From Malacoraja senta (Eukaryota): a stretch of 64,000 bases of DNA. This document shows, piece after piece, positions 21,699-52,855 of this stretch. The notes beneath the pieces are model-generated. The model had not been told where the DNA came from and did not search any database. It saw nothing but the letters and a program-made list of their open reading frames with translations. The stretch is taken from NCBI GenBank assembly GCA_038087875.1, contig CM075987.1:26414001-26478000 (forward strand), given 5' to 3'. The position numbers and the translations under genes were made by a program. Every line of letters starts with the position of its first letter. Within the stretch, counting starts at the first letter, position 1.

Positions 21699-21743
<45 letters not shown>

Positions 21744-21748
21744 ATAGT

Positions 21749-21888
21749 TCTTCTTCTTCTTGCGTATGGCGTGCACAGCCTAAAGTTGTAAGACAACTTG
21801 TTCTATTTGATCTTCCGTTTGTGCACGCCAGGTTGATTGCATTCATCGAAACAGGGTGGACCACGTGAAGGTTGCAATCTCCCACACC
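21749..21888 (-). mobile_element. Second copy of the HDV-ribozyme-headed short retroposon, inserted in a SINE
   Basis: TSD ggatagt at 21742-21748 and 21891-21897. (TTC)n tail on +. Aligns over its full length with 50621-50760. Confidence 0.85.
21835..21888 (-). ncRNA. HDV-like ribozyme, probably inactivated copy
   Basis: GGTGTGG GA GATTGCA ACC TTCACGT GGT CCACCCT GT TTCGA TGAA TGCAATC. L3 is UUCACGU as in CPEB3. The catalytic C is T (CpG decay) and P1 has one mismatch. Confidence 0.75.
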
Positions 21889-21959
21889 AAGGATAGTGCT
21901 AATGTACTGGTCGGCGCGGACTCGGTGGGCCGAAGGACCTGTTTCTGCGCTGTATCTCT

Positions 21960-48840: not shown

Positions 48841-50620
48841 ATTTCGAGCTGGCAGAGAAGATTGCAGCTCCACACAGACAGCACTCAAGGTCAGATATGA
48901 ACCAGAGGTCCCTGGCGCTGTGAGGCAGCGACACTGACTACAGAGTCCCAGTGTTTTAGAAATGGTAAACTCAGTTCCAGACTAAAGGGCCTGTCCCACG
49001 GGCATGCGACTCCATGCGGCAAGCGCGACCTAACCGGAAGCGGGGGCCATGCGGGGGCCGCGCGGAGGTCGCGGGGCCGGTCCCACTTCGATCGCCGGAG
49101 CTGTATGGAGTTGTGCAGAGCTGGTCCCGACATCGCGCGGGGCTCCGAAAAACTGACACTGTTCAAAAATTCCACGCGGCAACGGCCTGCCGGCCCGCAG
49201 CCGCCTCGGGGCCCTGCGCACCGCCTCGAGCCAGGTGCGCAGGGCCTTCGAGCCAGCACCGCCATTCAATGTGATCTAGGCTGATCATCCCCAATCAGTA
49301 CCCCGTTCCTGCCTTCTCCCCATATCCCCTGACTCCGCTATCTTCAAGAACCCTATCCAGCTCTCTCTTGAAAGCATCCAGAGAACCTGCCTCCACCGCC
49401 CTCTGAGGCAGAGAATTCCACACTCTCTGTGAGAAAAATTGTTTCCTCATCTCCGTTCTAAATGGCTTACCCCCTTATTCTTAAACCCTCTTCATCCCTT
49501 ATCCAGCCCACATCATTCATCCTTATTTTATTTGCTTGTGATTGATGATTACTACAAAATAGTGAACAAGTGCTTCCACACCTAAAACAAAAACCTCCTT
49601 AAATAGAATCCCAAATATCATGGAATCTCATGGTATTTGATTGTCACTTGCGGGTGGAGCACCAAGGCAAATTCCTTGTATGTGAATACTTGGCCAATAA
49701 ACTTATTCATTCATTCATTCATTTCCTGAAATTTTCCAAGCCTTCCCCAACTGCGCGCGCACAGGGAGACGGCGTCATTTTGCGTCCCTACCGCGTCACC
49801 GGCGCCATTTTCAATTGTGACGCGGGTGACGGGCCTCCCCCAACGGCGCAGGCGCGGATGGTGGTAAATATACTTTTTTCCCCCCCAAATCATCCCACGG
49901 GCCGGATTGGACCCCTTCGCGGGCCGGATGCGGTAAAATTTCCCGAAATTATTTAATTTCCCTAAACTTACCTGAAGACGACCAGAATTTCCCGAATTTT
50001 CGGATAATTTCCTTCAATGTGGAAACGCAATAGTGAACAGCTTTGGGCAGTGTACTCTGGCTTTTTATAACTACCTTCAACTGCCCAAACCTGTTTCAAC
50101 TTGGACAGCTGATGGAAGATTAGAAGTGAAGCAAAAGTCAATAAGTTGATTGCGCTGTGATGGCTCAGCAGTAACGTTTAAATATGTTCTGCCTCAAGGA
50201 TAAATCACCCACCTGGTGGCAACTTTCAGTTATGAAAGCAGGTAGGGACTCTTGGTCCTCACATTATCAACCTGCTTTAGTCAGGAAAGGGGTGGCATTT
50301 CTCTGAACTTTGAGTGGGAAAGGAACTGCAGATGCTGGTTTAAACCCAAGATAGACACAAAAAGCTGGAGTGACTCAGCGGGTCAGGCAGCATCTCCGGA
50401 GGAAAAAGAATAGGTGACGTTTCGTGCCGAGACCTTTCTTCAGACTGAGGTTCAGGGGAAAGGGAAACGGGAGATATAGACGGTGATGTAGAGAAATATG
50501 GAACAAATGAAGAAGGGCCTCGACCCGAAACATCGCCCATTCCTTTTCTCCAGAGATGCTGCCTGTCCCGCTGTTGGTTTAAACCAGCAACTGCAGTTCT
50601 CTCCTACGTAGAACAAATGA

Positions 50621-50760
50621 TTCTTCTTCTTGCGCGTGGCGTGCGCAGCCTAAAGTTGTATGACAACTTGTTCTAATTGATCTTATTTGATTGTGCACGC
50701 CAGGTTGATTGCATTCGTTGAAACAGGGCGAACCATGTGAAGGTTGCAATCTCCCACCCC
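50621..50760 (-). mobile_element. ~140-bp non-autonomous retroposon: 5' HDV-like ribozyme, 3' hairpin, (AAG)n tail
   Basis: TSD aacaaatga at 50612-50620 and 50761-50769. Tail reads ttcttcttctt on +. Second copy at 21749-21888. Confidence 0.85.
50707..50760 (-). ncRNA. HDV-like (CPEB3-type) self-cleaving ribozyme with minimal P4; catalytic C retained
   Basis: Minus strand reads GGGGTGG GA GATTGCA ACC TTCACAT GGT TCGCCCT GT TTCAA CGAA TGCAATC. P1 (7 bp including G-U pairs), P2 (7 bp perfect), P3 (3 bp), L3 and J4/2 CGAA are in HDV order. Confidence 0.82.
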
Positions 50761-52855
50761 AACAAATGAATGAAAGACATGCAAAAAATTAACGATGGTA
50801 AAGGGCCCTCCCCCACCCGAGTCATTCTAGTTTGACTGTTGTCCTGGTGAGTTTCGTTGTCTGTAACTCGTTTTCACCCAGCCCACAGCTAACAATGGCC
50901 TGTTTCCTTTTATCATCATTACTTGTTTGCATATCTCTCATTCATTTGTTCCATATCTCTCCTGATCACCGTCTATATCTCTCGTTTCCTTTTTCCCCCG
51001 ACTCTCAGTCTGAAGAAGGGTCTCGACCCAAAACGTCTCCTATTCCTTCTCTCCAGAGATGCTGCCTGTCCCGCTGAGTCACTCCAGCTTTTTGTGTCTA
51101 TCTCTGAAAATTCATTCTTACCATTGGGAATTAAATCTAGGGCGAAACAAGATATTTGATTCCACAAATATAATATTTTATTTTATTCTTTGTTATTGTA
51201 GTTCAGTTTAGAGATACAGTGTGGATACAGGCCCTTCGTCCCACCGATAACATAGAACTAGTGTGGATGTGCCTACCAGCAATCACCCACACTAGTTCTA
51301 TGTTATCCCACTCTCCGTTACACACCCTGCACACTAGGGACAATTTTTACCGAAGCTAATTAACCTACAAACCTTCAAGTCTTTTGGAATGTGGGAGAAA
51401 ACCCATTTTGTCACGGGGAGAACAGACAATGTCCGTACAGACAGCACCCATAGTCAGGAAAACCCCCGGGGTCTCTGGCACTGTAAGGCTGCAACTCTAC
51501 TGCTGTGCCTCTGTGCTTCCCCCCAACATGTCGCCTGTTTGGTCGTGAGTAGTCGCCCAAAGAGTCGTACCTTTTTCTGGTCGACGCTGGATTTTCAACA
51601 CGTTGAGAATTTTTGGCCACCTGCTGCGACTTTGACGGGTGCCGGCAAGTCGCCGAAAAAAATCGCGCAAGTGGGACAGGCCCTTTTAAATTTCCCTTGC
51701 ACATGAAACGCACTTTTATTTCGAAGATAGACACAAAAGGCTGGAGTAACTCAGCGGGACAGGCAGCATCTCAGGAGAGAAGGAATAGATGACGTTTTGG
51801 GTCGAGACCCTTCTTCAGACTGAGAGTCAGGGGAGAGGGAGACGAGAGAAATAGACGGTGATACAGAGAGATGCAGAACAAATGAATGAAAGATATTCAA
51901 AAAAGTAACGGTGATCTAGGAAACAGCCCATTGTTAGCTGTGGCGTTTATTTAATTTAATTTAACTTTTATTTTGAACTTGGAAAGGTTCATGCATCCTA
52001 ACCCCTGAGTATGTTATACAAAGTGCTGGGTGTGATCATTAAACACCAAGGCTCGCTTCAGAAACCAAATTACAAGGGCAGAGTAAATCTAATAAATGAA
52101 CAAGACCCATTGACCTCTGAGGAACCAATTACCCAAATAAAAATCATTACATTTTAAAAATTCAAGTGATATATTCAAAGAGAAAATCCATTATTCTTAA
52201 TGGAATACAATGGAGCTCCGACTGGAAAAATTATTTTAAATTAATTTTTTGGCTTGTGAGTGTCAGTGGCAAGGCCAGGATTTATTGCCCAACTCCAGCT
52301 TGCTTGCTTGTCAATGATCCATTAGGGTAGCCTTTCTCAAGCACCATCCTTTGTGCAGCAAATTTATTCTCACGGGGTGGGTTATGCATGGCTTTTGACC
52401 CAGCAATGATAAAGGAATCATCCTACCATAACCAGAGAGCAGTGCTGAACTACTATCTACCTCTTTGGAGACCCTCGGACAATCCTTGATTGGACTTTGC
52501 TGGCTTTACCTTACTAAACGTCATTCCCTTATCACGTATCAGTCCATGCGGGTGTCACGATTGTAATCATGTATTGATTTTCCGCTGACTGGATAGCACG
52601 CAACAAAAGCTTTTCATTGTAGCTCGGTACACGTGACAATAAGCTGTACTGGAAGATCAAAAAGCTGAAACACAAATCACTGTCTTTGACCACTAGCTCA
52701 AACTTTTAATATTCATTTTTTAGCCTGGGAAATAAAATGCCTCTCTCAACTTCCAGAGTTTTCATGGAGAGACCTAATTGAGTTGAGTTGAGTTGAGTTC
52801 ATAAGTGATAGGAGCAGAATTTGGCCATTCGGCCCATCAGGTCTACTCCACCATT

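What the first reader, a model, noticed from the sequence alone, without database searches (positions are those of the whole stretch)
50621..50760. Short retroposon whose 5' end is a CPEB3-like HDV ribozyme
Seen: on the minus strand the element reads GGGGTGG GA GATTGCA ACC TTCACAT GGT TCGCCCT GT TTCAA CGAA TGCAATC, then a body and an (AAG)n tail, flanked by a 9-bp TSD. This gives the HDV nested pseudoknot: P1 of 7 bp with G1-U, perfect 7-bp P2, P3, L3, and J4/2 CGAA with the catalytic C. P4 is reduced to a few nt. The TSD abuts G1, the predicted cleavage site. No tRNA head or Pol III boxes are visible. Known: HDV-like ribozymes process the 5' ends of R2, RTE and ingi/L1Tc retrotransposons, and the mammalian CPEB3 ribozyme has L3 UUCACGU, CCCU-GU and CGAA. 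Inference: a promoterless SINE-like family that cuts itself out of read-through transcripts and is mobilised by a LINE. I do not know of a description of it in elasmobranchs, but I cannot search.
Basis: partly seen in the sequence, partly recalled or inferred. Interest (0 to 1): 0.9.

Follow-up and report, generated by a model that had tools for sequence, protein, structure and literature searches.

The report
Self-cutting ribozyme heads a short retroposon
A 140-base mobile element present in thousands of copies in this animal genome begins with a stripped-down hepatitis-delta-type self-cutting RNA motif, and a second short element and a full-size LINE with the same tail carry their own versions of that motif.

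Summary
Window 50621-50760 (minus strand) is one copy of a 140-nt non-LTR retroposon with a (GAA)n tail and a 9-bp target-site duplication that abuts G1. The 54-nt head occurs 4,372 times in the genome within 3 mismatches (reversed control 0).

The head fits an HDV-like double pseudoknot: P1 7 bp with G1-U, P2 7 bp, P3 3 bp. L3, the CCCUGU stretch and J4/2 CGAAU equal the Rfam CPEB3 consensus. P4 is replaced by 5 nt.

Rfam scores stay below gathering. However, on a consensus-identical copy the only two families listed were HDV-type ribozymes.

The decisive evidence is comparative. A second ~205-nt retroposon and an APE+RT LINE share the ...ACGCAA(GAA)n end. Each starts at G1 of its own HDV-like fold with P4. 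All 17 P1/P2/P3 pairs hold in the three families, 11 with changes on both sides.

Best reading (confidence 0.8): a promoterless non-autonomous element is cut from read-through transcripts by its head and copied by that LINE. Cleavage itself is untested, because no raw RNA reads were available.

It is a new variant of a known kind. Ribozyme-headed LINEs, R2 SIDEs and NARTc are already in print.

The parts
50621..50760 (-). One copy of the 140-nt non-autonomous retroposon ('family 1'): ribozyme head, stem-loop body, (GAA)n tail
   Evidence: It is 95% identical to the family majority sequence.
50761..50769 (-). Upstream target-site duplication TCATTTGTT, abutting G1
   Evidence: found as an exact 9-mer by script.
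50612..50620 (-). Downstream target-site duplication TCATTTGTT, directly after the tail
50754..50760 (-). P1 5' strand (element nt 1-7, GGGGTGG); predicted cleavage lies 5' of G1 at 50760
50745..50751 (-). P2 5' strand (nt 10-16, GATTGCA), after the 2-nt J1/2 (GA)
50732..50744 (-). P3 hairpin (nt 17-29): ACC, then L3 TTCACAT (family majority TTCACGT), then GGT
50725..50731 (-). P1 3' strand (nt 30-36, TCGCCCT; family majority CCGCCCT)
50718..50724 (-). J1/4 GT (G37 is the predicted P1.1 partner of C22) plus a 5-nt linker TTCAA that stands where P4 would be
   Evidence: Family 2 and the LINE have a 5-bp P4 hairpin at this place.
50714..50717 (-). J4/2 CGAA, with the predicted catalytic C44 at 50717
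50707..50713 (-). P2 3' strand (nt 48-54, TGCAATC)
50637..50702 (-). 3' domain: long-range stem (nt 59-69 with 114-124) enclosing a small hairpin
   Evidence: on the consensus-identical copy L012: -23.9 kcal/mol, z -4.0, 0 of 200 shuffles fold as well.
50621..50636 (-). Terminal motif plus (GAA)n tail (here ...CGCGCAA GAAGAAGAA; family majority ...CATACGCAA(GAA)n)
   Evidence: The ACGCAA(GAA)n end is shared with family 2 and the LINE.
21748..21890 (-). Second, more decayed copy of the same family. TSD CTATCC; odd 5' junction (TTGGTGTGGG); predicted catalytic C changed to T; small deletion in the body

Best explanation
The element is a short, promoterless, non-autonomous non-LTR retroposon. Its first 54 nt form a minimal (P4-less) HDV-like self-cleaving ribozyme.

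Proposed mechanism, all of it inferred:
1. A copy is transcribed as part of a longer host or read-through transcript.
2. The head folds into the nested double pseudoknot and cuts immediately 5' of G1. This frees an RNA whose first base is the first base of the element, so no upstream sequence is carried along.
3. The structured 3' domain and the terminal ...CA(C/T)ACGCAA(GAA)n end are used by the APE+RT LINE that ends in the same motif. That LINE copies the RNA into new sites by target-primed reverse transcription, which makes 6-14-bp target-site duplications.

What is shown here:
- the family, its ends and its TSDs;
- the fold at the sequence level;
- covariation of that fold across three element families;
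- the existence of the LINE, with its own head and the same tail.

What is inferred: catalysis, read-through transcription, and which LINE does the copying.
For: **1. The family and its 5' end**
- 4,372 genome matches to the 54-nt head within 3 mismatches, against 0 for the reversed control. At least 100 are exact.
- All 30 fetched copies begin at GGGG, give or take a base. Upstream flanks are unrelated.
- 27 of 30 have an exact TSD of 6 bp or more within 2 nt of G1.
- In contigs of 4 runs from 4 coded organisms, depth falls about 10-fold beyond 50760.

**2. The motif**
- The descriptor hits only copies of this family in 654,416 positions. Decoys hit 2-6 other sites.
- cmscan on a consensus-identical copy (65 nt, E<=10) lists 2 of 4,227 families, both HDV-type, sense strand, full model, ending at nt 54. 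They are CPEB3 (12.4 bits, E 0.35) and HDV-F-prausnitzii (14.4 bits, E 0.55).
- RNAfold's MFE for the head is exactly P1+P3, and it leaves both P2 strands free.

**3. Comparative evidence**
- Family 2 is about 205 nt, with 268 tails within 3 mismatches. Of 22 sampled, about 14 are full length and the rest are 5'-truncated.
- Family 2 starts at G1 of a canonical HDV-like fold with P4. RF02682 scores 30.3 bits, E 5e-4, and 27.8 and 26.2 bits.
- The LINE has RVT_1 at 127.6 bits and Exo_endo_phos_2 at 33.1 bits. Its C-terminal 170 aa gave 5,461 first-look candidates.
- The LINE's 5' end, abutted by a TSD in L095 and by unrelated flanks in 21 copies, starts an HDV-like fold with P4.
- P1+P3: 70 of 70 cells paired and 5 of 10 pairs changed on both sides. 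Controls slid by 1-3 columns give 50-59% paired.
- With P2 added: 17 of 17 pairs are kept in all three families, 11 with changes on both sides. Shifted P2 registers give 1-5 of 7.

**4. Print**
- Minimal HDV-like ribozymes lack P4 (PMC10879173, Introduction).
- About 50 nt suffice for the fold (PMC4870747, Background).
- HDV-like ribozymes free promoterless RTE and baggins elements from co-transcripts (PMC6765202, passages).
Against: - No Rfam gathering score is reached: 12-14 bits against 35-44 for the head here, and 21.6-30.3 against 44 for the relatives. The window's own decayed copy gives nothing even at E<=10.
- Those E-values refer to tiny search spaces.
- Nested folding energy of the head is no better than shuffles (z +0.61). 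Pseudoknots are not modelled there.
- P4 is absent, and the activity of this particular 5-nt replacement is untested.
- The LINE head fails my P1.1 rule: 0 of 20 copies pass the strict descriptor, and 11 of 20 pass without that rule. Its J4/2 is long and ambiguous (...GCGAAACCAA).
- Only 2 of 13 full-length family-2 copies pass the strict descriptor, although their majority sequence does.
- Copies decay neutrally, so conservation within a family says nothing about function.
- The three families are only three data points, and the descriptor was written post hoc.
- There is no RNA evidence of any kind.
Confidence: 0.8

Rival explanations
1. The head is a relic or structural mimic of an HDV-like fold that no longer cuts, having lost P4. 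It is kept for another role, such as binding the LINE protein or stabilising the RNA. The precise 5' end would then come from a transcription start, or from reverse transcription running to a defined RNA end made in some other way.
For: P4 is missing and Rfam scores are low. In R2 the ribozyme region is also bound by the element's protein (PMC6765202, passages). No cleavage data exist.
Against: All catalytic-core letters are intact in the majority sequence: G1-U, C22/G37, and C44 within CGAA. P4-less HDV-like ribozymes are reported as active (PMC10879173, section on in vitro activity). The P4-less family is the most successful of the three, with 4,372 heads against 268 family-2 tails and 206 LINE-head candidates. 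No promoter-like head was found.
Confidence: 0.12
2. It is an ordinary Pol III-transcribed SINE with an unrecognised internal promoter in the head, and the likeness to HDV ribozymes is incidental.
For: Most known SINEs work this way (established knowledge). Their precise 5' ends come from transcription starts.
Against: There is no tRNA, 5S or 7SL likeness. An incidental fold would not covary across three families that include a protein-coding LINE. The LINE's 5' end has the same architecture.
Confidence: 0.04
3. The pairings are a chance match in a repeat.
For: HDV-like descriptors are loose and give false positives (PMC10879173, section on motif refinement). My descriptor was written after seeing the element.
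Against: Background is a few hits per 654,416 positions, yet the hit falls on nt 1 in three separate families. Pairing is compensated at 11 of 17 pairs.
Confidence: 0.01

Closest known systems
R2 SIDEs of Drosophila (short internally deleted elements; Eickbush and Eickbush 2012, PMC3414825, abstract read)
   Same: A non-autonomous non-LTR element made of a 5' HDV-like ribozyme and a 3' end used by a LINE's reverse transcriptase. The 5' end is defined by self-cleavage of a co-transcript.
   Different: SIDEs are rare and site-specific in rDNA, and they carry the partner's own ribozyme and 3' UTR. Here the element is dispersed with thousands of copies. Its head differs from the LINE head in every helix. 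Only about 6-9 nt plus the (GAA)n tail are shared, and P4 is gone.
L1Tc and its non-autonomous NARTc in Trypanosoma cruzi (PMC3383444 and PMC3185411, abstracts in search listing)
   Same: A LINE and a short non-autonomous partner both begin with an HDV-like ribozyme that frees them from longer transcripts.
   Different: In L1Tc and NARTc the same 77 nt are shared and also act as an internal promoter. The hosts are protists with polycistronic transcription. Here the heads are different sequences, and no promoter role is indicated.
HDV-like ribozyme-terminated RTE, baggins and R2 LINEs (Ruminski et al. 2011; not held, known to me through passages of PMC6765202 and from recall)
   Same: The LINE found here is a single-ORF APE+RT element with a roughly 13-nt 3' UTR, a short-repeat tail and a ribozyme at nt 1. 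Its first in-frame ATG lies inside the 3' end of the ribozyme.
   Different: The clade of this LINE was not determined by phylogeny here. 'RTE-like' is inferred from its architecture and from the Rex3 tail described in PMC6274825 (passages: stop codon 3 nt before GAA repeats).
Mammalian CPEB3 ribozyme (Rfam RF00622)
   Same: Same fold. L3 UUCACGU, CCCUGU after P3, J4/2 CGAAU, a GGGG start with G1-U, and a 7-bp P1 (alignment).
   Different: CPEB3 is a single-copy intronic ribozyme with a P4 hairpin. The score here is 12.4 bits against a gathering score of 35, so it is not a member by Rfam's rule. Common descent is not shown.
Minimal HDV-like ribozymes and theta ribozymes (PMC10879173; Introduction and the discovery section read)
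   Same: The double pseudoknot without the P4 domain, about 50-55 nt.
   Different: That paper states these were found in metagenomes and gut phages, often after tRNA genes, and found none in its eukaryotic set. Here the setting is the 5' end of a high-copy animal retroposon.
Hammerhead- and twister-bearing SINE-like elements of Schistosoma (PMC6765202 passages; PMC8501958, abstract in listing)
   Same: Short non-autonomous retroelements that carry a small self-cleaving ribozyme.
   Different: Different ribozyme classes. The hammerhead SINEs are said to be Pol III transcribed.

Membership tests
HDV-like (delta-like) self-cleaving ribozymes | Nested double pseudoknot: P1 and P2 crossing, with P3 nested | tested here: met
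   P1 is 7 bp, P2 7 bp and P3 3 bp at the canonical places. All 17 pairs are kept in three families, 11 with changes on both sides.
HDV-like (delta-like) self-cleaving ribozymes | Catalytic cytosine at the first position of J4/2; cleavage 5' of a G1 that closes P1 (usually G-U) | tested here: met
   C44 within CGAA lies directly before P2', and G1 pairs with U36. This is shown at the sequence level only.
HDV-like (delta-like) self-cleaving ribozymes | P1.1 between L3 and the bases after P1' | tested here: inconclusive
   C22-G37 is possible in families 1 and 2. The LINE head does not fit the rule I used: 0 of 20 copies pass.
HDV-like (delta-like) self-cleaving ribozymes | P4 helix | tested here: not met
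   Five unpaired nt stand in its place in family 1. P4 is present in family 2 and the LINE. Minimal members lacking P4 are described in PMC10879173.
HDV-like (delta-like) self-cleaving ribozymes | Rfam gathering score of an HDV-type model | tested here: not met
   No hit for the window. 12.4 bits against 35 and 14.4 against 44 on the consensus-identical copy. 21.6-30.3 against 44 for the relatives.
HDV-like (delta-like) self-cleaving ribozymes | Mg2+-dependent self-scission, abolished by changing the catalytic C to U | not testable with these tools
   This needs a bench assay.
Classical SINE (Pol III element with a tRNA-, 7SL- or 5S-derived head) | Head derived from a Pol III gene with an internal promoter | tested here: not met
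   ARAGORN finds no tRNA in 4 loci. Rfam at E<=10 shows no tRNA, 5S or 7SL match.
Non-autonomous non-LTR retroposon mobilised by a LINE | Short non-coding element, TSDs of variable length, short-repeat tail, and a 3' end shared with an autonomous LINE | tested here: met
   TSDs in 27 of 30 copies. The ...ACGCAA(GAA)n end is shared with an APE+RT LINE. Mobilisation itself is inferred.
SIDE (internally deleted derivative of its partner LINE) | 5' and 3' ends are the partner's own sequences | tested here: not met
   The head differs from the LINE head in all helices. No LINE-like element shares the body or the P4-less head. blastn-short of the family majority sequence found only short chance-level matches (12-16 nt, E 0.1 or more) in the RT-bearing loci, which are L1-like LINEs.
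CPEB3 ribozyme family (RF00622) | Rfam gathering score; single-copy position in the CPEB3 intron of mammals | tested here: not met
   12.4 bits against 35. The element is a dispersed repeat.

The most novel reading that the evidence does not exclude
The 54-nt P4-less head is a naturally minimal, catalytically active HDV-like ribozyme native to an animal genome. That would make it the first retrotransposon-borne member of the 'minimal' class, which has so far been tied to phages and metagenomes. Its letter-for-letter CPEB3-type core would reflect common descent, meaning the mammalian CPEB3 ribozyme is an exapted head of this kind of retroposon. Thousands of sense-oriented copies would also cut host transcripts.
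Probability: 0.15. Interest if true: 0.85.

Novelty: new variant of a known kind. Interest (0 to 1): 0.66.

Why it matters
HDV-like ribozymes are hard to find by sequence, and Rfam misses all three heads here at its thresholds. This genome offers a natural three-way comparison: a LINE, a SINE-like element with P4, and a SINE-like element without P4. All three use one tail, and all are abundant enough for statistics.

- **A minimal ribozyme in an animal.** The case shows that a ribozyme head plus a few terminal bases can suffice to build a very successful non-autonomous element without a Pol III promoter. It would also place the P4-less 'minimal' form, so far reported from phages, in an animal retroposon.
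- **Origin of the CPEB3 ribozyme.** The identical core makes the old question of where that ribozyme came from testable, by tracing such heads across vertebrates.
- **Genome annotation.** Such elements will be filed as unclassified repeats unless the head is recognised.
- **Host transcripts.** Thousands of potential self-cutting sites may matter for intron processing.

Tried and rejected
- **Rfam on the window's own copy.** At gathering score on the whole window and at E<=10 on 401 nt around the copy: nothing. The decayed copy and the missing P4 hide it.
- **RNA evidence.** No RNA holder was listed. All four runs laid were contigs, with no table of molecule starts or ends (table 6: none). So nothing can be said on expression or cleavage.
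- **Partner search through the best RVT_1 hits.** The 30 best loci are one young family, 97-99% alike. With a second family about 78% alike, they are L1-like LINEs with A-rich tails. I rejected them as partners because of their tails.
- **A LINE sharing the body.** Pattern with the head negated plus body nt 60-82: 29 hits, nearly all copies with indels and about 6 truncated copies. None found.
- **Another element sharing the P4-less head.** 2 hits, both rearranged copies. None found.
- **Truncated family-2 copies as possible LINE 3' ends.** Their upstream parts share nothing with one another. Rejected.
- **Thermodynamics.** MFE z-scores of the heads are not significant.
- **Alignment.** MAFFT could not align the P2' strands across families, so P2 was counted by script.
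- **Earlier notes of this scan.** Nothing on this genome or sequence. Two unrelated notes came up by words.
- **Papers not held.** Ruminski et al. 2011 and Webb and Luptak 2011. What I say about them comes from a review or from recall.
- **Print searches for this element.**
  - 'HDV-like, ribozyme, SINE, retrotransposon'.
  - Six taxon and ribozyme terms. It was poorly targeted: none of the 20 papers listed holds 'HDV-like ribozyme'.
  - 'ribozyme, shark, retrotransposon'.
  - None of the titles or abstract starts listed (16 of 16 papers; 20 of 6,086; 15 of 17) describes such an element. I read none of the papers, and the library lacks most subscription journals as well as Repbase and Dfam.
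- **Host.** I did not try to name the host organism.

Full report
**1. The observation**

Read on the minus strand, window 50760 to 50621 gives GGGGTGG GA GATTGCA ACC TTCACAT GGT TCGCCCT GT TTCAA CGAA TGCAATC. An 86-nt body follows, ending in AAGAAGAAGAA. TCATTTGTT lies directly before G1 (50769-50761) and directly after the tail (50620-50612).

**2. It is a large, young family**
- The 140-mer finds 40 scored places (of 2,301 first-look candidates) at 94-100% identity over its full length.
- The 54-nt head occurs 2,166 + 2,206 = 4,372 times within 3 mismatches. The reversed control gives 0, and at least 100 matches are exact.
- In the 30 fetched loci every copy starts at GGGG, give or take a base, after unrelated flanks. 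Every copy ends in (GAA)n.
- 27 of 30 have an exact direct repeat of 6-14 bp within 2 nt of G1. Two of the 30 share flanks and may be one locus assembled twice.
- The family majority has G25 and C30 where the window copy has A and T (CpG decay). So the majority L3 is TTCACGT and P1 has a G7-C30 pair.
- A second, more decayed copy lies at about 21748-21890 on the minus strand.
- Contigs of four runs from four coded organisms hold the element at high depth, with the same majority letters. Depth drops about 10-fold outside 50628-50760.

**3. Is the fold more than chance?**
- Rfam gives nothing for the window at gathering score or at E<=10.
- On a consensus-identical copy (L012, 65 nt) cmscan lists two families out of 4,227. 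They are CPEB3_ribozyme (12.4 bits, E 0.35) and HDV-F-prausnitzii (14.4 bits, E 0.55). Both are on the sense strand, cover the full model and end at nt 54.
- Both scores are far below gathering (35 and 44). The alignments show why: the 16-20 model positions of P4 are replaced by 3-5 nt.
- The printed CPEB3 consensus carries UUCACGU, CCCUGU and CGAAU, as the element does.
- My own descriptor, which includes the P2 pseudoknot that covariance models ignore, hit 27 start sites in 654,416 positions. All are inside 27 of the 31 copies of this family.
- Decoys with A, G or T at the catalytic position hit 5, 6 and 2 unrelated sites.
- RNAfold predicts P1+P3 as the MFE of the head, with both P2 strands unpaired. 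The energy is no better than shuffles, z +0.61.

**4. Looking for the partner**
- The best RVT_1 matches in the genome are young L1-like LINEs with A-rich tails, not (GAA)n.
- Patterns that keep part of the element and forbid its neighbouring bases showed that no abundant element shares the body without the head: 29 hits, mostly indel copies.
- Likewise nothing shares the P4-less head with another body: 2 hits, both rearranged copies.
- Keeping only ACGCAA(GAA)3 and forbidding the family's upstream bases uncovered two more families.

**5. Family 2**
- This is an element of about 205 nt ending ...CCTCAAACGCAA(GAA)n, with 268 tails within 3 mismatches.
- Of 22 sampled, about 14 are full length and the rest are 5'-truncated. 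Flanking direct repeats were read by eye in a few copies and not counted.
- It begins GGGGCTC. Its head reads:
  - P1 GGGGCTC/GAGCCCT
  - J1/2 AT
  - P2 GTTGTCG/CGACAAC
  - P3 ACC/GGT
  - L3 TCCCCGT
  - then GT, and a P4 hairpin CTGAC-CTCA-GTCAG
  - J4/2 CGAA
- RF02682 scores 30.3 bits (E 5e-4 in 301 nt), and 27.8 and 26.2 bits. All are below the gathering score of 44.
- Individual copies are decayed: 2 of 13 full-length copies pass my strict descriptor. The majority sequence passes at nt 1.

**6. Family 3 is a LINE**
- Copies ending ...GTC TAA AAGACACACGCAA(GAA)n are truncated at different points and have their own TSDs.
- The last 170 codons find 5,461 first-look candidates. The 150 scored are 88-100% identical.
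- Locus L095 holds a copy flanked by AGGAGGTAT on both sides. It carries RVT_1 (127.6 bits) and Exo_endo_phos_2 (33.1 bits), one stop codon, and an insertion of another repeat.
- Its first 142 nt find 206 candidates. Of the 40 scored, at 94-100% identity, most match from query nt 1.
- In 21 aligned copies the flanks upstream of GGAGGAG are unrelated.
- The head reads:
  - P1 GGAGGAG/CTCCTCC (or ...T in several copies, giving G1-U)
  - J1/2 AC
  - P2 AAAGACA/TGTCTTT
  - P3 GCC/GGC
  - L3 TCTACGC
  - P4 GCTTA-CAGGCTCA-TAAGC
  - then ...GCGAAACCAA before P2'
- It fits my descriptor only without the P1.1 rule: 11 of 20 copies pass at nt 1, and 0 of 20 pass strictly. RF02682 gives 21.6 bits, E 0.65.
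- The first in-frame ATG of the ORF lies at the J4/2-P2' border.

**7. Covariation**
- Positions 1-38 of the three heads are collinear without gaps.
- For P1+P3, 70 of 70 cells pair and 5 of 10 pairs change on both sides. Partners slid by 1-3 columns give 50-59% paired and 0-2 such pairs.
- With P2 counted by script, 17 of 17 pairs are kept in all three families, and 11 change on both sides. P2 in shifted registers gives 1-5 of 7.
- This is the main reason to accept the fold. Three elements that use one tail have kept the same double pseudoknot at their first base while replacing most helix letters.

**8. The rest of the element**
- Nt 59-124 of family 1 form a long-range stem with an inner hairpin: -23.9 kcal/mol, z -4.0, 0 of 200 shuffles as good.
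- In the full element the head and this domain fold independently.
- The single-stranded end CA(C/T)ACGCAA(GAA)n matches the LINE's ...CACACGCAA(GAA)n.
- No tRNA gene is found.

**9. Mechanism**
- Shown: the family, its exact ends, the TSDs, the fold and its covariation, and a LINE with the same end and its own head.
- Inferred: copies are transcribed within longer transcripts, the head cuts 5' of G1, and the LINE's reverse transcriptase primes on the (GAA)n end.
- This matches what reviews describe for promoterless RTE and baggins elements (PMC6765202, passages). It also matches the logic of R2 SIDEs (PMC3414825, abstract).
- The LINE looks RTE/Rex3-like by architecture. Rex3 has its stop codon 3 nt before GAA repeats (PMC6274825, passages). 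I did not test the clade.

**10. Comparison and novelty**
- Ribozyme-headed LINEs, and non-autonomous partners such as R2 SIDEs and NARTc, are in print. One review states that some non-autonomous SINEs use HDV-like ribozymes (PMC6765202).
- What differs here:
  - a dispersed family of more than 4,000 copies;
  - a head that is not the partner's own sequence;
  - loss of P4, a form that PMC10879173 reports almost only from phages and did not find in its eukaryotic set;
  - a core identical to the CPEB3 consensus.
- None of the titles or abstract starts listed by my three searches describes it. One search listed 20 of 6,086 papers and was poorly targeted, and I read none of the papers. The library lacks Repbase, Dfam and most subscription journals.
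- Ruminski et al. 2011 was not held. Supplements that I could not see may list similar elements.

**11. Verdict**

This is a new variant of a known kind. Catalysis remains to be shown.

Noticed in passing
window about 50514-50589; also inside LINE copy L095 at about 1290-1440: Another, far more abundant short repeat (core ...GATGTTTCGGGTCGAGGCCCTTCTTCA...) lies next to the element. In contigs of four runs its depth is 10-30 times that of the element. A copy has inserted into the endonuclease region of the LINE copy in L095, with a short duplication.
   Followed up: no
window 21700-21747: The second copy of the element is followed directly by its TSD and a long (CA)n microsatellite.
   Followed up: no
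loci L031-L066 (e.g. L061, L063): There are two very young L1-like LINE families, 97-99% identical within a family and about 78% between them. They have open frames of up to 1,271-1,748 codons and A-rich tails. RVT_1 gave 159,857 first-look candidates in the genome.
   Followed up: partly
L095:1026-1034 (element nt about 78-86): The first in-frame ATG of the LINE ORF lies at the J4/2-P2' border of its ribozyme. Translation would therefore start inside the fold. This recalls reports that HDV-like ribozymes aid translation initiation (PMC6765202, passages).
   Followed up: no
genome places listed (e.g. C4:10181063-10182378, C21:5827123-5827905, C19:3747164-3747979): At several places a LINE 5' head lies within 0.2-1.1 kb of a LINE 3' coding end on the opposite strand. 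This is the pattern expected from 5' inversion during insertion (twin priming).
   Followed up: no
L002/L003, L090/L091, L095/L096: These are pairs of loci on different contigs with the same flanks. L090/L091 are 100% identical over 661 nt by blastn. L002/L003 show the same 40-50 nt flanks as displayed. L096 matches the L095 head at 100% over 142 nt, with the same upstream flank. They are probably the same locus assembled twice (haplotigs) or recent segmental duplications, so copy counts are slightly inflated.
   Followed up: no
element nt 31-32 (window 50729-50730): At the CpG in P1', the G32-to-A change (U5-G becomes U5-A) reaches 8-25% in four runs. The mirror change C31-to-T is below the 10% listing limit. 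This asymmetry would fit an amplified subfamily with a tighter P1 pair.
   Followed up: no
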